Shown: positions 10,750 to 25,747, numbered from the stretch's first letter. The stretch is 64,000 bases of DNA from an uncultured Acidobacteriota bacterium (GCA_963827655.1 CAWHCF010000049.1:365824-429823), one strand, 5' to 3'. Numbers and translations are program-made. Notes: generated by a model from the letters alone, not told the origin.

Positions 10750-12129
10750 CTAACGGGCGAGCGCCTCGGAGAGCACCTTGCCCGGCAGGCCCGGCATGCT
10801 GAGGTCGAGCAGGTGCGCGATCGTCGGCGCCACATCGTAGTTCGTCGTGTGGGGCAGCCGCGCGCCGCGCCGGACCCGGTCTCCCGAAAGCACGAGCGCA
10901 GGATACATCCGCGGATGGCTCGGCAAGTAGCCGTGGCCGTGGTACGGCCTTTCTTTCGGCATCGGCCGGGTCGACTTTACAGACCGATCGGCGGCCAGGT
11001 GGGTGTCGATGTCGGCCAGGATCGCGTAATGTCCCTGCACGTAGGGACTCTCCTCGTAGCGCGGCAGGCCGAGCCCATGGAGATCTTCCGGGCGCACCAC
11101 GCGGGCGACGCCCTCGAGCTTGAGGGCCCGCTCGAAGACCTTCTCGAGGGCCGGGAGATCGCGCGTCCGGTCGAACTTCTGGTCGAGCTCGATCCAGAGT
11201 GTCCAGTCGCCTCCGTGGAGCCGGACACGGTCCGTGAGGCCGGCCTCTTCGAAGAGCGGGTAAAGGTTGACCTGGCGCGCTACCGTGTGGAAACCGTGGT
11301 CGGCGACGATGAAGAACGTAGTGCGCGCCTCGATTCCGGCGTCCCGGACCGCCTGGCGCAAAACCCCGACGCAGGCGTCGGCGTTGGTCAGAGCGGCGGC
11401 GGCCAGGTAGTGGTCCGGGCCATAGCTATGTTGCGCGTCGTCGGTCGCGAGAAAATGAATGGCAAGCAGGTTGGGACGGTGGGCGCGGATGGTATGGGCG
11501 GCCGCCCGCGCCAGAACCGCGTCGGCGGCCCCCTTGAAGCCCGGCGAGCGGTACCACTCGTAGTAAAGGTCGATCGGAACACCTGCCTGCCGCAGCGCCG
11601 CCAGGAAGCGAGGCTCGGCCCCGGTCGGGTCGGCATTGTTGCTCGAGTCGAGTGTCTCCGGCAGGTTATAGTCGATGGCCGGGTCCCCCTTGGTCTCGGG
11701 CCAGAAGAAAGCGGCCGTCGTCAGTCCTTTGCGCTTCGCGGCGTCGAAGAGCGTCGGGACCAGGATCGACTCCGATCGAAGCTTGTTGGTGGGGTGAAAC
11801 GACTCTCCGGTCGTGCGGTGGCGCAGGCGGTTGGAGAGAACGCCGTGGACCCGGGGCGCGACGCCGGTGATGAGCGTCGTATGGGCTGGATGCGTCACGC
11901 TTGGGAAGACGGTCTCGCTGCTGGCGGCCTGCGCACCCTCGGCAGCCAGCGCCCGGATGTTGGGGAGGGAGAGCTTCGGGTTGTCGAGATGATAGGCCGC
12001 GAAGCCGTCGATCGATACCAGCACCACGTACCCAACCTCGGCTCCGGGCGCGAGCGCGGCCACGATAATGACAAGCAGCGCGGGCAGTGCACGCAGGCAC
12101 AGAAATCGAGGCATAGTCATGAACCGCAT
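10750..12129 (-). CDS. Ectonucleotide pyrophosphatase/phosphodiesterase (type I phosphodiesterase, alkaline-phosphatase superfamily), secreted
   Basis: 459-aa ORF with signal peptide. Family motifs present: VVLVSIDGFAAYHL, PSVTHPAHTTLITG, FIVADHGF, GHGYLPSHPRM. Confidence 0.85.
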   Translation of the reverse strand: MRFMTMPRFLCLRALPALLVIIVAALAPGAEVGYVVLVSIDGFAAYHLDNPKLSLPNIRALAAEGAQAASSETVFPSVTHPAHTTLITGVAPRVHGVLSNRLRHRTTGESFHPTNKLRSESILVPTLFDAAKRKGLTTAAFFWPETKGDPAIDYNLPETLDSSNNADPTGAEPRFLAALRQAGVPIDLYYEWYRSPGFKGAADAVLARAAAHTIRAHRPNLLAIHFLATDDAQHSYGPDHYLAAAALTNADACVGVLRQAVRDAGIEARTTFFIVADHGFHTVARQVNLYPLFEEAGLTDRVRLHGGDWTLWIELDQKFDRTRDLPALEKVFERALKLEGVARVVRPEDLHGLGLPRYEESPYVQGHYAILADIDTHLAADRSVKSTRPMPKERPYHGHGYLPSHPRMYPALVLSGDRVRRGARLPHTTNYDVAPTIAHLLDLSMPGLPGKVLSEALAR

Positions 12130-13623: not shown

Positions 13624-14900
13624 ATGAAGCTTCTGAAAATCTCTGTGTCGTTGGTTTTTATGATCGTGTTGTTCTGGCCAATGATCTGAATTCCGTCACG
13701 GGAGACGATTCCGCCAGAGAAGCTCCCACTACTGACTTGAACGTCCTTACCGACGATATTTTCAACGGGTTCGGCGACAAGGGCCGTCCTGTGGACGAAT
13801 GCTCGAATCCGCCGGTGGCGAACCGCTCGTTCGAAGATAACAAGTTCATATTCGACGAGCGCGAGACTCCGGAGGACGGGCTGGGTCCGGTCTATAACGA
13901 TCTCGGCTGCGGCTCCTGCCATCAGAACCCGGAGAGCGGCGGCATCAGCCAGATCAACGAACTGCGGGCCGGACATGTGTCTAAGCGGCAACTTCGTTGA
14001 TCCTCCAGGTGGTTCGCTGATTCAACTGCGGGCGCTCGCCGCCCCCATACAGGAGCGTCTGGACGACGCCCCGCTCGAAAACATCAGGACCTTTCGAACG
14101 ACTCTCAACGTCATCGGCGACGGCTTCATCGAGGCCATCGCCAACAGTAAAATCGAAGAGATTCAGGATCGACCAGCCGTCAGGCTTCCAGGGCACCATC
14201 ATCAGGGTTCCGGTGGTCGAAGACCGCGGTACGCTTCGCGTGGGCCGCTTCGGCTGGAAGAACCAGCATGCCAGTCTGGTGTCGTTCTCCGGTGATGCAT
14301 ATTTCAACGAAATGGGCATCACCAATCCGTTTGACGGGAATGGCGGAAGGAGAGAGAACACCTCTCTGGGCGACTCGGTCGCAGCATTCGACCGAGTAGC
14401 AGACCCCGAGGACGATGGCGAGGATGTCGAAGCCTTCGCCAATTTCATGAGAGCCACCAGCGCTCCCGGCCGCGGGCCGATCACACTCCGCGGTTCGTCG
14501 CGGTGAGGATCTGTTTGAGGAAGTATCCTGCTCTCAATGTCACACTCCGACGATGACTACCGCAGAACCCGGCACCCTTATCAACGGCGGCCAGTTCAGA
14601 GTGCCGTCAGAGCTGGGCAACAAGATCATCCACCCGTTCAGCGATTTCCTGCTGCACGACATCGGGACCGGTGACGGGATCGTCCAGAACGGCGGTCAGG
14701 CCACCCGGAACATGGTGCGAACGCCGCCGCTTTGGGGTGTGCGCACTCGCCCGATGCTGATGCACGACGGGCAGTCGTTCACCTTCAACGAGGCGATTCA
14801 GCGCCACGCGGGTGTGGGCGGCACAATTTCAAGGAACTCCTTTAACGCCCTGTCCTCCTCGCAAAAGGCGGATCTTATTGCGTTCCTGAAGTCGCTGTGA
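13624..14900 (+). pseudogene. DUF1111 / di-heme cytochrome-c peroxidase-like (thiol oxidoreductase-like) secreted protein, broken by ~4 frameshifts
   Basis: Five consecutive plus-strand pieces. 13624-13689: signal peptide MKLLKISVSLVFMIVLF. 13737-14000: CGSCHQNPESGG heme motif. 13975-14295, then 14213-14506: GRFGWKNQHASL. 14553-14900: DFLLHDIGTGDG…TPPLWG…MHDGQSFTFNEAIQRHAG…ADLIAFLKSL. Frames run 1->0->1->2->0. Confidence 0.7.
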
Positions 14901-16867: not shown

Positions 16868-19800
16868 ATGAGCGATGACGCCGACGGCGTCATGAACCGC
16901 GGCGCCGGTAGACCGCCGACCGACGAAGCCGAGGTGCGGGCAGCCGTCGAGCGAGCGCATGCGCTCCTCGGCGGCGCGGCCGGCCGTCGACGCCGACGAC
17001 GTCGAGGCGCGCCTTACTCGCATCGGCGAGATGATCCGCCTGGCCAGGCGCCTGGAGCGGCCCGGCGGGCAGGACCAGGTGGCACGAGCGCTCGTCGAAA
17101 ACGCACGGGCAGCCGCGATGGATCTGGCGCAGCGTCTCGACCTCGACCAATTCTCGGAACGCGCGAGGGATGGAACGGCCTCGATCGATGACTTCGCCGG
17201 GCTACGGCGGCGCATCGACCACACCATACGCGTGTCCAGACACCTCGAGTATTTCGGTGAGCGAACTCACGCACGGACACTGTTGGCCAGCGCGCGGGTC
17301 GCTGCCATCAATCTCGCTGTTGACATCCTTCGCGGCGCCGGGAGCACGCCAGGCGAGACCTTGGCCCTGGCTAAGCTCCTCGACCGCCTTGACGAGTTCA
17401 ACTTCGCGTGGAGGATTCTCGACAAGGCCCGCGAGCATCGTGACTTCGGCAGAGAGCCCGGCGAGCGGATCCGGATCGTCCAGAAGCGGGCACTCTACAC
17501 ATACAAGGATGTCACCCAGCCTCTCGGCAAGCGGCTCGACGAGGCGCTGACATTTCTTGAGAACGAGGCAGAGCTGAAGACAACGACAGATCAGGAGACG
17601 CTCGGCCTGGCGGGGGCTATCCACAAGCGGAAATGGGAGCTCACCAAGAACGACCGCCACCTGAACGACTCGTACGCCTATTACCATAAGGGATACGCCC
17701 AGAAGCCGTGGAAGGATCAGGGGTATACGAGCATCAACGCCGCCTACCTCCTGGACTTGCTCGCCCAGGCGCATCGAGCCCTGCCGGAGCAGGCCGAGGC
17801 ACACCGTCATCGGGCAGACGAGATCAGGGCGGAGATCATCTCCGTCGTCCCCGAGATGCCGAAGCAGCCCGGTCAGGAGTGGCTGGAGGACATGTGGTTC
17901 TTCTACAGCACGGTCGGCGAGGCGTACTTCGGCCGTGGCGATTTCGACAAGGCTCACCTGTGGCTGGTGACCAAGCCGGAGCTGCGCGGTGTGCGCCCGC
18001 CGGACTGGGAGTTCGAGACGACGGCGCGACAGCTTGCCGAATTGGTGCGGATCCGAAATCCCGACGTCGACTTCGCGTCGACGCCGGCATGGATGGCCTT
18101 CAGGCAGTTCCTCTCTGAAAGCCCGCTCGGCGGGGGAGGCGACGTGAGCAGCGAGGCTGTGGGGCGGCTCGCCGACGGCAAGGCAGGCCTGGCCCTCTCA
18201 GGCGGCGGTTTTCGCGCTTCTCTCTTTCACATCGGCGTCCTCGCTCGACTCGCCGAGCTGGACGTGCTCCGCCGCGTCGAGGTCCTGTCGTGCGTCTCAG
18301 GAGGTTCCATCGTCGGCGCCCACTACTACCTGGAGGTCAGAAAGCTCCTCAGTGAGAAGCCCGACCATCAGATTGAAAAGAAGGACTACATCGAGATTGT
18401 CCAGCGTCTCGAGAAGGAGTTCCTCACCGGTGTGCAGACCAACATCCGCATGAGCGTGGTCACCGAGGCTAAGGCAGTCCGGCGGATGCTCCACCGGAGC
18501 TATTCGCGGACGGTGCGCCTGGGAGAGCTCTACGAGGAGCAGCTCTACTCGCGCGTCGCCCCCATCGAGGGCGAGAAGGTGGATGCGGACAACGGGGTGC
18601 GCGAGCGTTACATGCATGAGCTGGCGATCCACCCCAAGCTCGCGAAGGGTGGTCAATGGACCGACTTTGCGCCAAGGAATCACAACTGGCGGCGCGAGGC
18701 CAAAGCCCCGATCCTTATTCTAAACGCCGCCGCCCTGAATACCGGTCACAACTGGCAGTTCACGGCCAGCTACATGGGCGAGGCGCCCGCCACCATTCAC
18801 CGTGAGATCGACAGCGTCTCGCGGCTGCGTCGCAAGTACTACACAGATGCCCCTCACAGCGCGGCCGCTCCACAGAAGGTGCGGCTCGGCGCCGCGGTGG
18901 CCGCGTCATCCTGTGTGCCCGGTTTGTTCGAGCCCTTGGTGTTCGCGGACATGTACGAGACGCGAGGCAGCGGGCAGCCCATCGACGTCACGCTCGTCGA
19001 CGGCGGCGTCTGCGACAATCAGGGCGTGGCCGGTCTCATCGAACAGGATTGCACCGTCCTGCTCGTCAGTGACGGGAGCGGCCAGATAGACGCGCTGGAC
19101 GCGCCAAGCGCCAGGGCGCTGATGGTGGCCTTGCGCACGAACGGGATCTTGCAGTCGCGTGTCCGCGGCACCCAGTACCGCGAGCTGGATGCGCGGCGCG
19201 GCGCCCTGATGCTGAACGGGTTGATGTTCGTCCATCTTAAGAAGGACCTCGACAACCAACCGGTAGACTGGAAGGACTGCCCTCCGGAGTTGAGGCTCCG
19301 CGCTCCCGATGATCGTGAGGTGCTGACCAAGTACCGAATCTCGAAGGACGTACAGCGGCGGCTGGCCGCCATCCGCACCGATCTCGATTCGTTTTCCGAT
19401 CAGGAGGCCTACGCCCTGATGCTGAGCGGCTATCGGATGACCGAGTATGAGTACGCGAACAGATTCGCTCCCGTGGCCGCGGCCCCCGAGCCGCAGGCCT
19501 GGCGCTTTCGTGCGATCGAGCATGCGATGACGCGGCCGGGTGAAGCTCAGGACTACCTCAACACGATCCTCGACGCCGGGAGCAGCCTCGCCTTCAAGGT
19601 CTGGAAGCTCGATGCGCGGCTCCGGAGCCGCGCGCAGCGCCTGAAGCAGCTGGTAGTCGCGGCTGGCGCGGTCGCCGGGCTCGTCACCTTGCTCGTGCTG
19701 GCCGCTCTGCTGCAGGCCGTGTGGTCACTGTTGGGGGGTGGCGCCTCGGTGTTGCCGGCCGCCGCGCTGACGGGGCTCGGTGCGATCGTCACCGTGGTGG

Positions 19801-20030
19801 CGGTGGTGGTCGTCCTCGGGTCGCTGTTCGCCCTGCTGTTCTATGCGGTGAGGCTGCGAGGGAAGGGCGACGCCGTGGCTCATTTCGCAGTCGGCGCGTT
19901 GCTGCTGTTCGTCGGCGGTCCGGTGGCGCGACACCACATGAGGAAGTACGAGCCAGCGTACCTGGAGCGGGGAAGCATCCGGAAGCTGCCCGGTCCGTCC
20001 AGGGCCGCGTTTAGAACTGCCGCGCGCTGA
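16868..20030 (+). CDS. Patatin-like phospholipase with N-terminal DUF4071-type TPR-like domain and C-terminal 4-helix membrane anchor (putative effector); probable frameshift near 16975 between an SD-equipped ATG at 16868 and the annotated 16959 start
   Basis: Patatin motifs: GGGFRAS (oxyanion loop), CVSGGSIVGAHY (GxSxG nucleophile), DGGVCDNQGV (catalytic Asp). aa ~150-400 align with the TPR region of the 441-aa gene opposite (GAIHKRKWE vs GRIYKDQWE; SYAYYHKGYAQKPWKDQGYTSINAAYL vs AIETYLQGFEADWRDAYPGINAVTL). The C-terminus has four hydrophobic helices (LVVAAGAVAGLVTLLVLAALL…). An aaggag SD sits 7 nt before the ATG at 16868, in frame 2; the annotated ATG 16959 is in frame 0 and has no SD. Confidence 0.8.
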
Positions 20031-20217
20031 TCTCGATTCCCCGGCGCGGATGCCGTCCGGTCGCGGGTCCCTTCGAGCGTCTTCGGGTATAGCAGGAGTC
20101 AACAATGAGTCACCCGGTCAAGCACAACATCCCGTACGCGGAGAGCGACAAGGGAGCGCTACGCCCGATTGAGTTAGCGTCTCGAAGCGCACCTTGAATT
20201 GCTTGGCTGCTCTTAGA

Positions 20218-20240
20218 ACTTCGTGAGGCCTCACGGGGCG
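20218..20240. terminator. Perfect palindrome CGTGAGGCCTCACG (with G run) between convergent genes; candidate bidirectional terminator
   Basis: actt-cgtgaggcctcacg-gggcg lies midway between the patatin stop (20030) and the minus-strand gene stop (20278). Confidence 0.4.
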
Positions 20241-20277
20241 CTTAAATTCGGAGTCGAGTTCAGAAACATATAAAGAA

Positions 20278-21603
20278 TTATTTCGAGTGCTCTAGTAGCT
20301 TCCTCTCAATTTCATCCGCCCAACGAACCTCGTCGTTTCGCTGTTTGCGCGCTTCTCGGATAAGACCCAAGTTTCTCGCCGTGGTTGCTGGTTCCCAGGA
20401 TTCCCGTATTAAGGTCAGCGCAACAGTTAATGAGCTAGTCGCTTGTTGTTGATCTTTGGCTAAGACCGCCAACTCAACCAGAGTGGCATAATCCCAGTAA
20501 TCAGGCTTACCCGTCGCGATACGACGCTCAACCGCGTACGCAACAACCGGGACCAGCCTTTGCTGGCGCGTATCCGGCGGTTCCCTCAGCTCCATCAATG
20601 TAACGGCATTGATTCCAGGGTAAGCGTCTCGCCAGTCAGCCTCGAATCCTTGGAGATAGGTTTCTATGGCCTTTTCCAGCAGGCTCTTTGCGACTGATAT
20701 GTCCTTTCTTTTTGATGCTTCCTCCCATTGATCTTTGTAGATACGCCCAAGAATGCTGCAACTTTCGCTGCTGGGCCCTCGCTTTTCAATCAACTCCTTT
20801 AAAGTCTCTTCGGCTTGGCGTCTCTCGCCGAGGCGATTGAGCGCGAGGGCGAGCTGTTCTTGCACCATGACGGTTGACGCCAAGGGTCGTGACATTTTGT
20901 TTACTAGATCGGTCATTTCCTTCCAGGCCTGAACAGCGCGATAGGAAAGAAGGAGATCAATAACCACTCCAGTGTCACAATGTTCAATGTTGCCAAGCTC
21001 GGCTTCTATTGCGCGCAGCGCTTCAATGTTTTTACCTTTCCGCGCCGCCGCAAGTTGAGCTTTCCTCTCTGGCGAGTATGCTACTACTTCTCGGAAGACG
21101 TCAGTTTTCGTGTGGGCAATACCAGGGTAATTTTCCACCAGCTCATAGATCGAACTGCCAGGAGCCGACTCTCGAACTTCTTTCAATTGAAAAGCCAGCG
21201 CAGCCTTAGCACCCTGAACGTCTTTCAGAGATCCGTTGGAAGTTAGCGCGTAGGTTAAGGTCCGGAGCGTACCGTGGTCAAGGGTCACGCCGCTCGCCTC
21301 GGAAAGGATGACCACCGTAGAGTTCGGACGCACTGCATCCCGCGCACCCAGCTCATAGATCGCGTTGGCATTGGCTGTCGTCAGGTCCACGACCGCGTAC
21401 TCGCAAAGAATAGCTTGCTCAACCATAGGCTTGTGAATCATTCCCCCGATCACCGGCTCATCGGGCCGAATCGCCTCGAGCCCCGCTTCTTTTATTGCAG
21501 GCGCCACCAGGTCTCGATAAATCCCTTCAAAATCGATCGTGAACCCCTTTCCGTCGGCTTTCTGGCCATAGGGCATAAAAACAAAGCAAAGTGGTCGACT
21601 CAT
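20278..21603 (-). CDS. NDT-like (nucleoside 2-deoxyribosyltransferase/TIR-like Rossmann) domain + DUF4071-type TPR protein (ASK1 N-terminal-like)
   Basis: 441-aa intact ORF. N-terminus MSRPLCFVFMPYGQK…AILCEYAVVDLTTANANAIYELGARDAVRP is an NDT-like signature with Glu in an E-[LA]-G context. C-terminal ~250 aa are TPR-like and homologous to the N-terminus of the patatin protein. ~50% GC versus ~63% in flanking genes. Confidence 0.8.
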   Translation of the reverse strand: MSRPLCFVFMPYGQKADGKGFTIDFEGIYRDLVAPAIKEAGLEAIRPDEPVIGGMIHKPMVEQAILCEYAVVDLTTANANAIYELGARDAVRPNSTVVILSEASGVTLDHGTLRTLTYALTSNGSLKDVQGAKAALAFQLKEVRESAPGSSIYELVENYPGIAHTKTDVFREVVAYSPERKAQLAAARKGKNIEALRAIEAELGNIEHCDTGVVIDLLLSYRAVQAWKEMTDLVNKMSRPLASTVMVQEQLALALNRLGERRQAEETLKELIEKRGPSSESCSILGRIYKDQWEEASKRKDISVAKSLLEKAIETYLQGFEADWRDAYPGINAVTLMELREPPDTRQQRLVPVVAYAVERRIATGKPDYWDYATLVELAVLAKDQQQATSSLTVALTLIRESWEPATTARNLGLIREARKQRNDEVRWADEIERKLLEHSK

Positions 21604-21693
21604 AAAATCAGGACCCGTCTCCCTGCACCTCGGCTGAAAAACACCGACGGCTATGAAAACCCGTGCTCTCTCGAGCCACCTGACAATTCGTCT

Positions 21694-22963
21694 TTAAAGC
21701 TCCCAATTCAACACGCGCCGACGGTAAGGATAAGCGATGCGATGCAGAATACCTAACAACTCAACGTCATCGGAGTAAAAGAAGACCTGCTGATCGCGGA
21801 ACATGAACGGAGGGCGACGGCGTGGCGATCGTGCAACCAAATAGAGTTTTGCATCAGCTCCCCGAGCGATACCAGCTTCTATGCAAGTGTTCAAGTTGTC
21901 TTCCGAGATGTCTGAGGCCACCATCGATGCCTTCGCGATTCGCTCAATAATGGTCTGCTGGATCTGGCCCTCGCGAATATCATCGCCCACAACACACGGA
22001 GTTCCCGTGACGCGCTGAAGAATCTGTTTGATGACCTGATTCCGCACTCGGTTTTGATCGTCGAAATTGGTGGAGAGAAAAGTATAGTGGGGCCGTGGAG
22101 GTCGTTTCCATTCATCAGAGATCCACTCAATGCCTTTGCGCAAGCTATTCGCAACTGTGCTGTTGAAACCTCCGTCTGAAGGCGCGACCCGTATTAGACG
22201 TTGCATCGAGCCCTCGGTTACCTGAACACTCGGTTCCGCGATAACAAGGCAAGGCAGGCCGAGCGCTCCAGCAATCTCAATTTCCTGTAGCATGTACTTT
22301 GAAGTCTCACCGTTACCACGATCTGGAAGGATGGCGACCAGTCCCCCACAGCTCGAAATGATGCTCTGAATCCGAGTTGCCTCGACTCCTGGCCAATCCT
22401 TCGAGTCACCAACAAGCCTGAAATCAGCCTGGGCGAGAACTTCTTTGCATATACCGTCGGCCAGGGACGACTCACTTTCTCTCCACGTTCGACTGACGTA
22501 GACGTCACGGGTTTTTTCGAAATCCAGATCCACTTCGTCGTAATACAGATCCGCGAGAAACTGACCATAGGTGACCACTTCTCTCTTATCTTGGACAAGG
22601 TCAACCCACTTGGTCGTTTGCAGGAACCCGGGCACTTGGCATTCGTCAATGCGCACTGGAATAACGCGAAAATCTTTGAGTTGCGTCCGCTGGCCAATCG
22701 CCGCTTCATACTCCTCTCTGACCCAACCCGAATTGATAGAAGCGCTCGATAATACGATGATCATGGAACGGCATTGAGTGACGGATTCCGCGAGTCGTGT
22801 CGCGATGGTAGCGCCGGCGGGTAGATGGCGGGCGTCGTACCAGATCGGAATTCCTGATACCTCACTCAGCCACTTATGCAGACCGTCAACAAATGACTTG
22901 TCGGCATGCGCGTGGCTAAGAAAGGCACAGAACTTGCGCTTGTTTAATGGCAGTTCCCGCCAA
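21694..22963 (-). CDS. TIR-domain protein with two C-terminal NDT-like domains; N-terminal 66 codons of the TIR domain lie upstream of the annotated ATG (22764) with no in-frame canonical start (probable frameshift near 22950, or CTG start)
   Basis: Manual translation upstream of M22764 in the same frame gives a canonical TIR N-half: …LPLNKRKFCAFLSHAHADKSFVDGLHKWLSEVSGIPIWYDARHLPAGATIATRLAESVTQCRSMIIVLSSASINSGWVREEYEAA. A perfect SD aaggagg (22970-22976) and a TTG (22963-22961) sit in a different frame that stops after 15 codons. Downstream domains: DVYVSRTW…CLVIAEP and HYTFLSTNF…ASMVASDISEDNLNTCIEAGIARGADAKLYLV; the second matches the partner gene's NDT-like motif. Confidence 0.75.
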
Positions 22964-23095
22964 AATGTCCCTCCTTGAACTCAAGTATGTCCAGAAAGTC
23001 TACTGTCGATGCCGCAAATTCGAGCTCGAAGATGCCGAATATAGCAGTACTGTTCTTGATGTGCGATCAGTATTTCCGTGGGCTAATTTCCTTGG

Positions 23096-23482: not shown

Positions 23483-24832
23483 ATGAACCGTCGCCAGTTT
23501 CTCGAAGGAACCGCTGCCGCGAGCGTGGCAGCGACTCTATCAAGGCCGGGTGCCTCAGTCGCGAGCCCGAACGATATGGTAAACGTGGCTATCGTCGGAA
23601 TTCGAGGCGAAAGCCAGGGGCAGCCGACGTGGACCCGGCTCGGCCGAGGGCAGGATCACTACGCCGGCCTATCGCATGTGAAGAACGCCCGGATTACGCA
23701 CGTGGTCGACATCGACGAGCGCCACTTTGCGACGGTGCTTCCCAAGCTCCGGTCACGGTGGGGCGGGGATCCGAAGACCGAGACCGACATTCGGCGCATC
23801 CTGGATAATCGCGATGTCGACGCCATCACGATCGCGGTTCCCGATCACTGGCACGCGTTGATGACGGTCTGGGCCTGCCAGGCGGGCAAGGACGTTTATG
23901 TCGAGAAGCCGGTGTGCCACAACCTCTTCGAAGGCCGCAAGATGGTCGAAGCGGCGCGAAAGTACAAGCGCGTTGTGCAGGCGGGCACGCAGCGCCGCAG
24001 CAACCAGCTTACGAAAGAAGCGGTAAAGTTCCTCCAGTCCGGAGGGCTGGGGAAGCTGTACGCCGCACGCTGCTCCGTGCTGCGGCCGCGCGACCCGATA
24101 GGACACAAGGTCGACGGTCCCGTTCCAGAGGGAGTCCACTACGACCTTTGGCTGGGGCCCGCGCCCCTACGCCCCTTCAACGAGTTGCGCTTCCACTACA
24201 CCTGGCACTGGTTTTGGGACTACGGTGACGCGGACCTGGGGAACAACGGTGTGCACGTGCTCGACATCCTGCGCTGGGCGATCGGCAAGCGGGAGCATCC
24301 GCGCCGTATCCACTGCACGGGCGGGCTGTTCGACAAGGGCGCACCCACCGACCAGGAGACCCCGAACACCCAGTACGTCACGTTCGAGTATGCCGACGGC
24401 ACGAACCTGCGCTGCGACGTGCAGGGCTGGTACGGCGGGAGCGACGGAGGCGGGAGTTTCATCTATGGCACCGAGGGTTGGATGGATCTCGGCGGCAGGG
24501 AAGGCCCCCGGATCTTCTTGGGACGCAAGAATGAGCCCGGGCCCGACCTGCGCAAGCTGGCCGGGGGCGGTCAGGGCGATGACGAGGGTCCCGACCCGCA
24601 CTTCCAGAACTTCATCGAATGCGTCCGGTCGCGCAAGTGGCAGGAACTGGCCGCCGACATCGAAGAGGGGTACATGTCAACCGCGCTGTGTCACCTGGGA
24701 AACATCTCCTACCGGCTCAAACGCCCGCTGGTCTTCGACGGGCGCAGCGAGCGCTTCCCGGACGACGCGGAGGCCAACCGGTTCCTCACTCGCGAATATC
24801 GCCGGCCGTTCGTCGTCCCCGAGAAGGTGTGA
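23483..24832 (+). CDS. Gfo/Idh/MocA-family NAD(P)-dependent oxidoreductase with Tat signal
   Basis: Tat motif NRRQFLEGTAAASVAA. N-terminal Rossmann VNVAIVGIRG…; …DVDAITIAVPDHWHA…VYVEKP. 449 aa. Confidence 0.9.
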   Translation: MNRRQFLEGTAAASVAATLSRPGASVASPNDMVNVAIVGIRGESQGQPTWTRLGRGQDHYAGLSHVKNARITHVVDIDERHFATVLPKLRSRWGGDPKTETDIRRILDNRDVDAITIAVPDHWHALMTVWACQAGKDVYVEKPVCHNLFEGRKMVEAARKYKRVVQAGTQRRSNQLTKEAVKFLQSGGLGKLYAARCSVLRPRDPIGHKVDGPVPEGVHYDLWLGPAPLRPFNELRFHYTWHWFWDYGDADLGNNGVHVLDILRWAIGKREHPRRIHCTGGLFDKGAPTDQETPNTQYVTFEYADGTNLRCDVQGWYGGSDGGGSFIYGTEGWMDLGGREGPRIFLGRKNEPGPDLRKLAGGGQGDDEGPDPHFQNFIECVRSRKWQELAADIEEGYMSTALCHLGNISYRLKRPLVFDGRSERFPDDAEANRFLTREYRRPFVVPEKV

Positions 24833-24845
24833 CGGCTCGCTTTTG

Positions 24846-24910
24846 GAGTGCGCAAGCTTGCTAAGCTTGCTTGCGCCTTGTGTTGCGGCAGCTTGCTGCT
24901 GCAGCACGGA
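24846..24910. repeat. GCAAGCTTGC-type palindromic repeat (gtgcgcaagcttgctaagcttgcttgcgccttgtgttgcggcagcttgctgctgc)
   Basis: Shares gcttgcgccttgtg..gcgg.a.cttgctgc.gc with 58424-58470. Lies immediately after the oxidoreductase stop and overlaps the annotated first ~20 codons of the next ORF. Confidence 0.5.
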
Positions 24911-25747
24911 ATCGCTAGACTCCAGGCGCTTTCGCCATTCCAGATACGTTATCGTAATTGCGAAAGCATCCCTGCGCCGAAGAAAAAAGCCTTGAGCCGT
25001 CAGCCGTCCGAGCCCGATGTCCTCCGCTGCGATTTCTGTGGTAAATCGCAGTCTGACGTGAGGAAATTGATTGCCGGGCCGCACGTCTACATCTGCGACG
25101 AGTGCGTGGAGATATGCGTTGAAATCCTGGGCGACGAAGGCGTGAACGTCACGATCGTCCCAGAACCAACAGTCAAGAATGAGAGGATCCCGGACCATAC
25201 CATACTCTGGCGCAGATTGGACCAGGCGGGCCATGAGTCAGCGCGGCTGTCCTATCGAGATTTCTCCTGGCATCTGAACGGAACGTCGGTGTTTGCGCAT
25301 CAACAGCAGCCGTGCCGGCTCGACTACCTGGTGATCTGCAACCGGAAATGGCAGACCGTGTTCGGGCGGGTTAACGGCTGGGTCGGGGACCGGCCCATCA
25401 ATATCGAAATCTCGGCGGACACTTCACGACGCTGGCAGCTCAACGGGAAAGAGAATCCCGAAGTTGAGGGGTGCATCGACCTGGACCTTAACTTCAGCCC
25501 GTCGACCAACCTGCTTCCGATTCGACGGCTGGACCTGGCGGTCGGAAACGAAGCCAACGTACGGGCAGCCTGGCTTCGCTTTCCCGCTTTCACGTTTGAA
25601 CCACTCGACCAGCTCTACCGCCGTACGGATCGCGCGACCTACCATTACGAAAGTGGGGGTGGCGCCTTCGTCGCTGAACTCAGGGTGAGTGAGGCAGGGT
25701 TCGTCACGCATTACTCAGACTTTTTTGAGATCGTCGCGCCGTCATAG
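24848..25747 (+). CDS. ClpX-type C4 zinc-finger fused to a putative glycolipid-binding-like (PF06475-like) domain; true start probably downstream of 24910
   Basis: [36 protein letters not shown] is a ClpX-N-type zinc finger. C-terminal ~190 aa (…[11 protein letters not shown]…[19 protein letters not shown]…) resemble the glycolipid-binding family; family assignment is from memory. Confidence 0.55.

What the first reader, a model, noticed from the sequence alone, without database searches (positions are those of the whole stretch)
17300..21300. Patatin effector and partner share a homologous DUF4071-type TPR module (possible hetero-oligomerisation switch)
Seen directly: GAIHKRKWE…SYAYYHKGYAQKPWKDQGYTSINAAYLLDL in the 1023-aa protein vs GRIYKDQWE…AIETYLQGFEADWRDAYPGINAVTLMEL in the 441-aa protein, with conserved W/Y/G spacing over ~120 aa. 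In ASK1 this TPR region mediates signalosome oligomerisation. Shared TPRs in effector and sensor would allow TPR-TPR docking to couple nucleotide processing (NDT/TIR) to phospholipase activation.
Basis: partly seen in the sequence, partly recalled or inferred. Interest (0 to 1): 0.7.

Follow-up and report, generated by a model that had tools for sequence, protein, structure and literature searches.

The report
Two immune effectors share one sensor module
A membrane phospholipase gene and its neighbour really do carry the same ASK1-like helical-repeat module, but it is a catalogued domain (Pfam TPR-S) predicted to sense signals made by TIR enzymes, so the locus looks like a known type of anti-phage system with two effectors, not a new docking switch.

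Summary

The proposed TPR-TPR hetero-oligomerisation switch is not supported. In ASK1 the isolated TPR-containing region is monomeric and the TPRs do not contact each other. Each kind of TPR-S protein also occurs, or works, without the other.

The 441-aa protein and the upstream 419-aa TIR gene look like a type VIII Thoeris pair (ThsB plus ThsI). The 441-aa protein aligns end to end (E 7e-34) with a plasmid stand-in (proxy) for an experimentally validated ThsI. The TPR-S of the patatin protein matches that proxy better (E 7e-15) than it matches its own neighbour (E 0.003).

In 77 related loci, TIR genes (24) and genes with the ThsI-type N-terminal domain (23) cluster next to TPR-S-patatin genes, and some sit in overlapping operons.

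The best reading is that one TIR-made NAD-derived signal, probably cADPR, switches on two effectors through homologous TPR-S sensors. Ligand binding by TPR-S has never been shown directly.

In this window the TIR-ThsI pair is compositionally foreign and convergent to a native patatin gene, so coupling here is inferred. This is a new member of a known kind, of modest interest.

The parts
16959..20030 (+). 1023-aa gene for a TPR-S - patatin phospholipase - C-terminal membrane-anchor protein. The true start may lie downstream, because most homologues begin at about aa 80-120.
   Evidence: ORF. Pfam TPR-S plus Patatin. At least 4212 homologues; the 120 listed all carry Patatin plus TPR-S. GC3 0.824, like the flanking genes.
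17325..18119 (+). TPR-S-type helical-repeat module of the patatin protein (aa 123-387; Pfam core aa 148-265 = 17400..17753).
18189..19028 (+). Patatin-like phospholipase domain (aa 411-690). It carries the GGGFR oxyanion motif, the nucleophile Ser447 in CVSGG, and Asp681 in DGG.
   Evidence: Pfam PF01734 E 1.5e-13. The motif residues are invariant in the 26-sequence alignment A1. Sequence shown. The family profile hits the PlpD patatin structure 5fqu.
19641..19931 (+). Hydrophobic C-terminal region (aa 895-991), probably about three membrane-spanning helices that anchor the phospholipase.
   Evidence: Kyte-Doolittle scan, 19-aa windows, values up to 2.97. Hydrophobic consensus retained across homologues.
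20031..20277 (.). 247-bp spacer between the stop codons of the two convergent genes.
   Evidence: Coordinates. No convincing terminator found in the consensus scan.
20278..21603 (-). 441-aa ThsI-like protein: an N-terminal nucleotide N-glycosidase-like (DRHyd / 'CMP hydrolase') domain followed by TPR-S.
   Evidence: PF13281 E 4.8e-50 and TPR-S E 1.6e-27. Foldseek top hits are ASK1 8qgy and 5ulm. End-to-end alignment with the ThsI proxy from plasmid pA7J1, E 7e-34. GC3 0.548.
20290..20952 (-). TPR-S-type helical module of the 441-aa protein (aa 218-438).
   Evidence: Helices from aa 178 onward in the AF2 model.
21154..21603 (-). N-terminal alpha/beta enzymatic domain of the 441-aa protein (aa 1-150). 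The motif ...TTANANAIYELG... contains N80 and E84.
   Evidence: Beta-alpha pattern in the AF2 model. N78, N80, Y83 and E84 are nearly invariant in alignment A4. Sub-threshold profile hits to DNPH1/Rcl at aa 29-92, E about 1. The N-x-x-x-E spacing matches the catalytic N82/E86 reported for BcTpr.
21694..22953 (-). 419-aa TIR protein gene, the presumed signal generator (ThsB-like): a TIR domain plus a C-terminal extension of about 280 aa. The first codon is CTG here and ATG in a 99%-identical relative.
   Evidence: the ORF listing reports only 21694..22764. The frame stays open upstream and encodes the N-terminal half of the TIR domain. L084 encodes the same 419-aa protein from an ATG. Full-length homologues lie next to ThsI-like genes in L084, L087, L093 and L133.
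22543..22932 (-). TIR domain (aa 8-137), with the conserved glutamate in ...SGWVREEYEAA...
   Evidence: Pfam TIR_2 on the part of the domain inside the listed ORF. Local TIR profile E 2.9e-33 over the full domain. The glutamate was placed by eye against the WEIE and WELD motifs of the validated type VIII ThsB sequences.

Best explanation
The shared region is TPR-S ('tetratricopeptide repeats - sensor'), an ASK1-type helical module that moves between effector proteins.

In this locus a TIR protein (419 aa) and a ThsI-like protein (nucleotide N-glycosidase-like head plus TPR-S) form a type VIII Thoeris-like cassette. The convergent neighbour is a membrane-anchored patatin phospholipase with its own TPR-S.

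Proposed mechanism:
1. On phage infection the TIR domain converts NAD+ into a cyclic ADP-ribose-type messenger. This is inferred from characterised type VIII systems.
2. The messenger is bound by TPR-S. This is predicted in the literature and not yet shown directly.
3. Binding releases the attached enzyme. In the 441-aa protein that is a nucleotide/NAD-degrading head; in the 1023-aa protein it is a phospholipase that damages the membrane.

On this reading the two TPR modules are parallel receivers of one small-molecule signal, not docking surfaces for each other.

What is shown here: the homology of the modules, the domain architectures, intact catalytic motifs, and recurrent genomic linkage. 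What is inferred: the identity of the ligand, ligand binding by TPR-S, and coupling in this particular strain.
For: Homology and fold.

System identity:
- The TIR gene lies directly upstream of the 441-aa gene here and in L084, L087, L093 and L133.
- The TIR on plasmid pA7J1 is 76% identical to a ThsB TIR validated as type VIII Thoeris. Its neighbour aligns end to end with the window's 441-aa protein (E 7e-34).
- Type VIII ThsB makes canonical cADPR, and cADPR is toxic to cells carrying the system. The TPR is presumed to be the sensor (preprint 10.64898/2025.12.03.692087).

Patatin module as a sensor of the same class: its TPR-S aligns with the TPR-S of that ThsI proxy at 30% identity over 188 columns, E 7e-15.

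Linkage, in 77 loci centred on patatin homologues from one-genome-per-species contigs:
- TIR genes lie within 10 kb in 24 loci. Genes with the ThsI-type N-terminal domain (DRHyd; 11 of them close full-length ThsI homologues) lie within 10 kb in 23. Either is present in 35.
- Both fall off with distance. TIR goes from 0.095 per side in the first kb to 0.02 or less at 7-9 kb.
- TIR_2 is the commonest Pfam family among the adjacent or operonic non-ThsI neighbours (15 of 105).
- Co-directional thsI-then-patatin pairs with 16-89 nt gaps occur in L021, L039 and L080. In L124 TIR, ThsI and patatin run in one direction, with ThsI and patatin overlapping.
- The convergent layout seen in the window recurs in L001-L003, L008, L009 and L088.
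- TIR-TPR-S-patatin fusions exist (P0065, L034).

Precedent for two effectors on one TIR: ThsH plus ThsI in one operon. 'Patatin-Tpr assemblies' were already counted as 4 of 78.

The effectors look active: patatin Ser447/Asp681 and the oxyanion motif, plus N80/E84 in the 441-aa protein.
Against: - No experiment shows that TPR-S binds any nucleotide. The 2025 preprint says only 'presumably'.
- 42 of the 77 patatin loci have neither a TIR gene nor a gene with the ThsI-type N-terminal domain within 10 kb, although some of these are short contigs. 11 loci have such a gene next to patatin with no TIR nearby. One shared local TIR signal does not explain these.
- In this window the genes are convergent, not co-transcribed. 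The TIR-ThsI pair has GC3 0.55-0.56 against 0.82 for the patatin gene and the flanks, so the two parts have different histories.
- The two TPR-S modules share only about 25% identity and belong to different subtypes, so they might read different ligands.
- The TIR gene lacks a canonical start codon here.
- The BcTir/Tpr preprint assigns signal production to the TPR protein rather than to the TIR. That would fit a relay better than parallel sensing.
Confidence: 0.55

Rival explanations
1. Independent neighbours. The TIR-ThsI pair is a self-contained, recently acquired Thoeris cassette that landed beside a resident TPR-S-patatin gene. The patatin gene answers to a different signal or a distant generator. 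The shared module then reflects common ancestry of sensor domains, not coupling in this strain.
For: - GC3 is 0.548/0.560 for the cassette against 0.824 for the patatin gene and 0.82-0.84 for two of the flanking genes. The same contrast is seen in L088.
- The genes are convergent.
- L005-L007 keep the synteny of L002/L008 but lack the ThsI-like gene.
- 42 of 77 patatin loci have no TIR or ThsI-type (DRHyd) partner nearby.
- The two TPR-S modules are different subtypes.
- The flanking genes are housekeeping genes, so this is not a defence island.
Against: - The convergent patatin/ThsI-like pair recurs in a different genomic context with matched GC3 (L008, L009, L003).
- Tight co-directional pairs or operons occur in several phyla.
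- The frequency of the partner genes falls with distance from the patatin gene. Chance adjacency does not predict that.
Confidence: 0.2
2. Relay or ASK1-like trans assembly. The ThsI-like protein acts upstream of the patatin protein. Either its glycosidase head makes or converts the messenger that the patatin TPR-S reads, or that head docks in trans on the patatin TPR-S, as the ASK1 N-terminal domain docks on the partner protomer's TPR.
For: - BcTpr, not BcTir, is reported to make the cADPR isomer.
- 11 loci pair a gene with the ThsI-type N-terminal domain with TPR-S-patatin and have no TIR within 10 kb. Six of these have full 10-kb flanks (L008, L009, L021, L038, L066, L078).
- Some pairs have very short or overlapping gene junctions.
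Against: - In validated type VIII systems the TIR alone makes cADPR, and ThsI behaves as the toxic effector.
- 12 patatin loci have TIR genes but no ThsI-type partner within 10 kb, and TIR-patatin fusions exist.
- There is no interaction data.
Confidence: 0.15
3. One reading: the two TPR modules bind each other, and this hetero-oligomerisation switches the phospholipase on.
For: - The modules are homologous and the genes are adjacent.
- BcTir and BcTpr are reported to form a complex, so protein-protein contacts do exist in this system class.
Against: - The isolated ASK1 TPR+PH region is monomeric, and no TPR-TPR contact is seen in the dimer.
- Each partner occurs, or functions, without the other.
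- The patatin TPR-S is closer to the TPR-S of a distant proteobacterial ThsI than to its own neighbour's. Co-evolving interaction partners would not be expected to show that.
Confidence: 0.07

Closest known systems
Type VIII Thoeris (ThsB TIR plus ThsI 'CMP hydrolase and TPR'; preprint 10.64898/2025.12.03.692087)
   Same: - A TIR gene lies next to a gene for an N-glycosidase-like head plus TPR.
- The 441-aa protein aligns end to end (E 7e-34) with the neighbour of a TIR that is 76% identical to a validated ThsB.
- Dual-effector operons are described for this signal.
   Different: - ThsB here is 419 aa, with an extension of about 280 aa; the pA7J1 homologue of the validated ThsB is 134 aa.
- The host is probably an acidobacterium rather than a proteobacterium.
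- The additional effector is TPR-S-patatin, not SLATT, and it is encoded convergently.
- No activity has been tested.
BcTir/BcTpr system of Bacillus cereus (preprint 10.1101/2023.05.26.542521), with the TPR-centred assemblies of Burroughs and Aravind 2020 that it summarises
   Same: - Same architecture of glycosidase-like N domain (aa 1-189) plus C-terminal TPR, with catalytic N and E four residues apart.
- A TIR partner gene is present.
- 'Patatin-Tpr' neighbourhoods were already listed (4 of 78).
   Different: BcTir has lysine in place of the catalytic glutamate, and the TPR protein is reported as the signal maker. Here the TIR keeps the glutamate.
ASK1/MAP3K5 N-terminal domain plus TPR (PDB 5ulm, 8qgy)
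   Same: It is the best structural match for both modules. It also matches the 441-aa protein by sequence (E 3e-7 for the single sequence, 2e-13 for the family profile).
   Different: The bacterial proteins have no PH domain and no kinase. The ASK1 TPR is a scaffold within a dimer, not a known nucleotide sensor. The patatin family has no sequence-level hit to ASK1.
CBASS CapV and other nucleotide-activated patatin effectors
   Same: A patatin phospholipase is used as a membrane-damaging immune effector and is switched on by a nucleotide second messenger (PMC12480259, abstract seen).
   Different: The patatin protein here carries an N-terminal TPR-S module, which this report reads as the sensor, and has its own C-terminal membrane anchor. 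I did not examine CapV's own domain composition. The Thoeris survey tested SLOG-patatin candidates, not TPR-S-patatin.

Membership tests
Pfam PF20308 TPR-S | Whole-protein score above the curated gathering cut-off (27.6 bits) | tested here: met
   Patatin protein 57.8 bits; 441-aa protein 96.5 bits.
Pfam PF13281 MAP3K_TRAF_bd (DUF4071) | Match to the full model, which covers the N-terminal alpha/beta domain plus the TPR | tested here: met
   The 441-aa protein scores 171.1 bits over profile positions 2-357 of 371. This row applies to the 441-aa protein only.
Pfam PF13281 MAP3K_TRAF_bd (DUF4071) | The same full-model match in the patatin protein, as 'DUF4071-type' in the finding's title implies | tested here: not met
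   The patatin protein matches TPR-S and Patatin only. Its relation to DUF4071 is limited to the TPR part.
Type VIII Thoeris | TIR-domain gene adjacent to the effector gene, with the catalytic glutamate retained | tested here: met
   The TIR gene 21694..22953(-) ends 90 bp upstream of the 441-aa gene. The glutamate in WVREEYE was aligned by eye with WEIE/WELD of validated ThsB sequences. Caveat: the start codon is CTG.
Type VIII Thoeris | Effector homologous to ThsI ('CMP hydrolase' head plus TPR) | tested here: met
   E 7e-34 over 432 columns against the neighbour of a TIR that is 76% identical to validated ThsB. Similarity of the head to DNPH1 is only sub-threshold (E about 1). No validated ThsI sequence itself was available.
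Type VIII Thoeris | TIR makes canonical cADPR on infection, cADPR activates the effector, and the system protects against phage | not testable with these tools
   This needs LC-MS, cADPR feeding and plaque assays of the kind described.
Patatin-like phospholipase | Oxyanion G-G-G-x-R/K, nucleophile G-x-S-x-G and catalytic D-G-G/A | tested here: met
   GGGFR, CVSGG (first G replaced by C; Ser447) and DGG (Asp681) are all invariant in 26 homologues. Pfam E 1.5e-13.
ASK-type signalosome | TPR followed by a PH domain and a protein kinase, with oligomerisation through those domains | tested here: not met
   No PH or kinase domain in either protein. The ASK1 TPRs do not contact each other.
PADLOC-catalogued defence systems (2023) | Significant match to a PADLOC protein model | tested here: not met
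   No hit for the patatin or 441-aa proteins. The TIR protein has only weak hits (E 0.002-0.005). The library predates type VIII Thoeris.

The most novel reading that the evidence does not exclude
A foreign TIR-ThsI cassette has been wired onto a resident, otherwise orphan TPR-S-patatin effector, and the two TPR-S proteins act in series or as one complex. Either the ThsI-like glycosidase head converts the TIR product into the ligand read by the patatin TPR-S, or it docks in trans on that TPR-S as the ASK1 N-terminal domain docks on its partner's TPR. That would be a bacterial forerunner of the ASK1 assembly logic, and a route by which orphan effectors gain new inputs.
Probability: 0.12. Interest if true: 0.65.

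Novelty: new member of a known kind. Interest (0 to 1): 0.35.

Why it matters
If the reading is right, this locus is a natural case of one TIR signal driving two different killing activities, nucleotide depletion and membrane lysis, through homologous TPR-S receivers.

TPR-S-patatin is a very large family: at least 4212 homologues in one search, mostly from Acidobacteriota. I found no experimental test of it. The Thoeris survey tested only SLOG-patatin candidates.

The patatin TPR-S is clearly similar to the TPR-S of a cADPR-responsive ThsI. That gives a direct, cheap experiment: does cADPR activate this phospholipase? The same experiment would also provide the first direct test of whether TPR-S binds the messenger at all, which bears on what the homologous region of human ASK1 once did.

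The module sharing itself is already in domain databases and was noted in comparative-genomics work, so the finding is not new in kind.

Tried and rejected
- PADLOC and NCBIfam gave no useful hit for the patatin or 441-aa proteins.
- Sequence and profile searches of the PDB with the patatin protein and its family found no ASK1 hit, only the PlpD patatin structure.
- Burroughs and Aravind 2020 (J Bacteriol e00365-20, PMC7685563) could not be read by DOI or PMC id. What it says is taken second-hand from two preprints and from my memory of its abstract.
- A full-text search for 'TPR-S' found nothing relevant.
- The contig of the 96%-identical patatin homologue P0001 had no DNA available, so I could not ask whether a close relative lacks the cassette.
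- Pfam at a permissive threshold did not name the N-terminal head of the 441-aa protein or the C-terminal extension of the TIR protein, apart from a weak TIR-like hit at E 0.04.
- Promoter and terminator consensus scans of the locus did not exceed the shuffled controls.
- I first considered the GAF protein and the roughly 375-aa protein next to the pair in L001-L003 as system components. I rejected this because L005-L007 keep those genes without the ThsI-like gene.

Full report
**What is at the locus**

Three genes matter.
- A 1023-aa ORF at 16959..20030(+).
- A convergent 441-aa ORF at 20278..21603(-).
- A TIR gene upstream of the 441-aa ORF on the minus strand. The ORF lister reports it as 356 aa (21694..22764).

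Pfam gives these domain assignments.
- The 1023-aa protein has TPR-S (PF20308, aa 148-265, E 1.8e-15) and Patatin (aa 411-690, E 1.5e-13).
- The 441-aa protein has MAP3K_TRAF_bd/DUF4071 (PF13281, aa 82-425, E 4.8e-50), with TPR-S nested inside at aa 227-337 (E 1.6e-27).
- The third protein has a TIR_2 match that starts at profile position 54, so the listed ORF is missing the N-terminal half of its TIR domain.

The patatin protein keeps the GGGFR oxyanion motif, Ser447 (in CVSGG) and Asp681 (in DGG). All are invariant in 26 homologues. Its C-terminal stretch aa 895-991 is strongly hydrophobic and is probably a membrane anchor. No other ORF in the 64-kb window belongs to these families.

**Checking the observation**

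Profiles built from about 100 homologues of each protein were cut to patatin aa 100-400 and partner aa 180-441. They align with hhalign probability 97% and E 1.1e-10 over 131 columns. With a permissive setting the alignment runs for 212 columns, patatin aa 123-387 against partner aa 218-438.

Of the 62 aligned columns that are at least 85% conserved in both families, 30 carry the same residue. These fall into four motifs: E-T-x-G-x-x-G-x-I-x-K-x-x-W-E, Y-x-x-G-Y/F, D-x-x-Y-x-x-x-N-A and W-E-x-E-x-T-x-R-Q/N-L.

Structure agrees with sequence.
- The AlphaFold2 model of patatin aa 100-420 is confident (pLDDT 92.4) and all helical.
- The 441-aa model (pLDDT 81.6) has the same ASK1 entries as its best Foldseek hits (E 3.7e-9, 423 columns spanning the N-terminal domain and the TPR). 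It also matches ASK1 by sequence.

One refinement: only the TPR part is shared. The patatin protein does not match the whole DUF4071 model.

**The TIR gene**

The minus-strand frame stays open upstream of 22764 and encodes the missing half of the TIR domain (LPLNKRKFCAFLSHAHADKSF...), but it contains no ATG, GTG or TTG.

A metagenomic contig, L084, carries a 97%-identical 441-aa gene. It encodes the same TIR protein (99% identity) as 419 aa starting from an ATG. The window differs from L084 by two single-base insertions at that point (TTTT for TTT, AACTG for AATG). As a result the codon at 22953..22951 is CTG.

The gene is therefore 21694..22953(-), with either a weak start or an assembly error. 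The window also holds a di-haem oxidoreductase gene broken into several frames at 13737..14900, so indel errors are a real possibility.

Full-length homologues of this 419-aa protein lie next to ThsI-like genes in L084 (99%), L087 (77%), L093 (51%) and L133 (37%). The TIR/441-aa pair is thus a conserved two-gene module.

**What the pair is**

Two papers bear on it.

The first is a 2025 preprint (10.64898/2025.12.03.692087). It defines type VIII Thoeris as a TIR protein (ThsB) plus an effector, ThsI, with a 'CMP hydrolase' domain and a TPR.
- The TIR makes canonical cADPR only on infection.
- Added cADPR is toxic to cells that carry the system.
- The authors write that the TPR 'presumably' perceives cADPR, and that this TPR was earlier predicted to take part in TIR signalling.

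The second is a 2023 preprint (10.1101/2023.05.26.542521). It describes BcTir/BcTpr with the same architecture: a glycosidase-like domain at aa 1-189, then a TPR, with catalytic N82 and E86. It counts, among 78 TPR-centred operons taken from Burroughs and Aravind 2020, 28 with TIR and 4 'Patatin-Tpr' assemblies.

I could not read the 2020 paper. From memory, its abstract speaks of a TPR scaffold predicted to recognise NAD+-derived signals.

To test membership directly I searched plasmids.
- Pseudomonas plasmid pA7J1 carries a 'TRAFs-binding domain' gene followed by a 134-aa TIR gene.
- That TIR is 76% identical to the validated type VIII ThsB TIR sequence printed in the preprint's Table S1. 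Its neighbour therefore serves here as a stand-in (proxy) for the validated ThsI.
- The window's 441-aa protein aligns with that proxy over 432 columns (25% identity, E 7e-34). The alignment includes the N-terminal motif around N80 and E84.
- The family profile also gives sub-threshold hits to DNPH1/Rcl at aa 29-92.

**The patatin module and the validated system**

The TPR-S of the patatin protein (aa 173-354) aligns with the TPR-S of the same ThsI proxy at 30% identity over 188 columns, E 7e-15. That is far better than its match to the 441-aa protein encoded next door (E 0.003). The patatin protein therefore carries the same subtype of module as a cADPR-responsive effector.

The reverse case also occurs. 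In L013, L029 and L082 the neighbouring glycosidase-TPR proteins carry a patatin-subtype TPR-S: profile E of 1e-28 to 1e-33 against the patatin-type profile, and about 1e-5 against the ThsI-type profile. The module has evidently been exchanged between effector heads.

**Are the two genes linked?**

I fetched 80 loci around patatin homologues from a one-genome-per-species collection. They come from Acidobacteriota, Desulfobacterota, Nitrospirota, Gemmatimonadota, Verrucomicrobiota, Myxococcota and Proteobacteria. I scanned them with family profiles built here. A patatin gene could be called in 77 of them.

| Within 10 kb of the patatin gene | Loci (of 77) |
|---|---|
| TIR gene | 24 |
| Gene with the ThsI-type N-terminal domain (DRHyd); 11 are close full-length ThsI homologues | 23 |
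| Either | 35 |
| Both | 12 |
| Neither | 42 |

Further points from these loci:
- Both kinds of gene thin out with distance. TIR genes fall from 0.095 per flank in the first kb to 0.02 or less at 7-9 kb. ThsI-type (DRHyd) genes fall from 0.04-0.07 in the first 3 kb to about 0.01 beyond.
- Among 105 adjacent or operonic non-ThsI neighbours, TIR_2 is the commonest Pfam family (15 members).
- Co-directional thsI-then-patatin pairs with 16-89 nt gaps occur in L021, L039 and L080. Looser co-directional arrangements with intervening genes occur in L010, L061, L064 and L069.
- The window's convergent layout recurs in L001-L003, L008 and L009, which share a different genomic context, and in L088, whose 441-aa homologue is 87% identical.

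The reverse survey used 80 metagenomic loci around homologues of the 441-aa protein. The gene could be called in 76. TIR is nearby in 28 and patatin in 6. One of these, L124, has a 995-aa TIR gene, ThsI and TPR-S-patatin in one direction, with ThsI and patatin overlapping.

Fusions also occur. TIR-TPR-S-patatin is seen in P0065 and in the 2157-aa ORF of L034. Fusions to nSTAND1 and MinD-like ATPases are seen in P0017, P0027 and others.

Linkage is therefore real and recurrent, but not obligatory. 42 of 77 loci show neither partner within 10 kb. L005-L007 keep the synteny of L002/L008 without the ThsI-like gene.

**This window in particular**

| Gene | GC3 |
|---|---|
| Patatin gene | 0.824 |
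| Two flanking genes (10750..12129 and 23483..24832) | 0.82-0.84 |
| 441-aa gene | 0.548 |
| TIR gene | 0.560 |

L088 shows the same contrast, whereas in other genomes the paired genes have matching GC3. The flanking genes are ordinary metabolic genes. In this lineage a foreign TIR-ThsI cassette therefore sits beside a native patatin gene. Functional coupling here is an inference from the behaviour of the families elsewhere.

**Mechanism**

The best-supported reading is that TPR-S is a portable receiver for a TIR-made NAD-derived messenger, and that the locus has one generator and two effectors. One effector degrades nucleotides or NAD. The other attacks the membrane. The precedent is the ThsH plus ThsI operons that share cADPR.

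- The isolated TPR+PH region is monomeric.
- The two regulatory regions touch only through their PH domains.
- The TPR is contacted by the N-terminal domain of the other chain.

That last contact keeps open a more interesting minority model. The glycosidase head of the 441-aa protein could dock in trans on the patatin TPR-S, or the 441-aa protein could make or convert the ligand. The BcTpr report and the loci that have the pair but no TIR give this model some support.

I put parallel sensing at 0.55, independent neighbours at 0.20, relay or trans assembly at 0.15, and TPR-TPR docking at 0.07.

**Novelty**

TPR-S is a curated Pfam family that is already pre-computed on both protein families in public data. 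Its association with TIR and with patatin genes has been reported, and the TIR-ThsI pair has been characterised experimentally.

What is not in the literature I could reach is an experimental test of TPR-S-patatin as a TIR-signal effector. The observation that its module is the ThsI subtype is also absent there.

I rate this a new member of a known kind, with modest interest.

Noticed in passing
window 22951-22975 (minus strand): The TIR gene has CTG where the 99%-identical protein in L084 starts with ATG. Two single-base insertions relative to L084 (TTTT for TTT, AACTG for AATG) remove the canonical start, so the ORF lister reports a truncated 356-aa ORF. This is either a weakly translated or decaying signal generator, or an assembly indel.
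   Followed up: yes
window 20278-22953 versus 16959-20030 and the flanks: GC3 is 0.55-0.56 for the TIR and 441-aa genes, against 0.82-0.84 for the patatin gene and two flanking genes. The cassette looks recently acquired and sits beside a native TPR-S-patatin gene. L088 shows the same contrast; other genomes do not.
   Followed up: yes
window 13737-14900 (+): A di-haem oxidoreductase (Pfam DHOR) gene is split over at least four overlapping ORFs in different frames. It is either a pseudogene or a sign of indel errors in this assembly.
   Followed up: partly
window 21694-22530 (minus strand; aa 142-419 of the TIR protein): The C-terminal extension of about 280 aa looks like two further Rossmann-like repeats (motifs ...EIEIAGALGLPCLVIAE... 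and ...CIEAGIARGADAKLYLVA...). It gives only a weak TIR hit (E 0.04) and weak PADLOC hits to TIR effector models. Its role is unknown. It is conserved down to 37% identity in ThsI-linked homologues.
   Followed up: partly
L005, L006, L007 versus L002/L008: The same chromosomal synteny is kept (response regulator, EamA, patatin, GAF protein, a roughly 400-aa protein, a roughly 1450-aa protein) with or without the ThsI-like gene. The ThsI-like gene is therefore a presence/absence variable next to a vertically inherited patatin gene.
   Followed up: partly
L013:13009-14451, L029:6744-8123, L082:6557-7810: Glycosidase-TPR proteins encoded next to patatin genes carry a patatin-subtype TPR-S (profile E 1e-28 to 1e-33) rather than the ThsI subtype. 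This suggests the sensor module is swapped between neighbouring effectors.
   Followed up: partly
L085 (and its near-duplicate L086): A dense island holds three DUF4071/TPR-S genes or fragments, three TIR genes, a TPR-S-patatin gene, and a polyprenyl synthetase gene wedged between the ThsI-like gene and the TIR genes.
   Followed up: no
L168 (Rhizobium plasmid pCC511_4): A homologue of the 441-aa protein (48% identical) lies in a cluster with three TIR genes, a DUF4231 protein (which I recall as SLATT-related; not checked), a 7-cyano-7-deazaguanine synthase and an HhH-GPD glycosylase. This may be another multi-effector TIR island.
   Followed up: no
P0017, P0027, P0041, P0042, L042, L047, L052 and others: Many TPR-S-patatin homologues of about 1450 aa are fused at the N terminus to a MinD-like ATPase plus an nSTAND1 NTPase. 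Where the loci were examined (L042, L047, L052), a TIR gene of about 430-450 aa lies immediately upstream.
   Followed up: no
window 16959-17250 (+): The first roughly 80-120 residues of the 1023-aa ORF are not covered by most homologues (query coverage 75-91%). The real start codon may lie downstream of 16959.
   Followed up: no
window 24848-25747 (+): An ORF combines a ClpX-type C4 zinc finger (E 1e-18) with a putative glycolipid-binding domain (E 2e-44). I noted the pairing but did not look into it.
   Followed up: no
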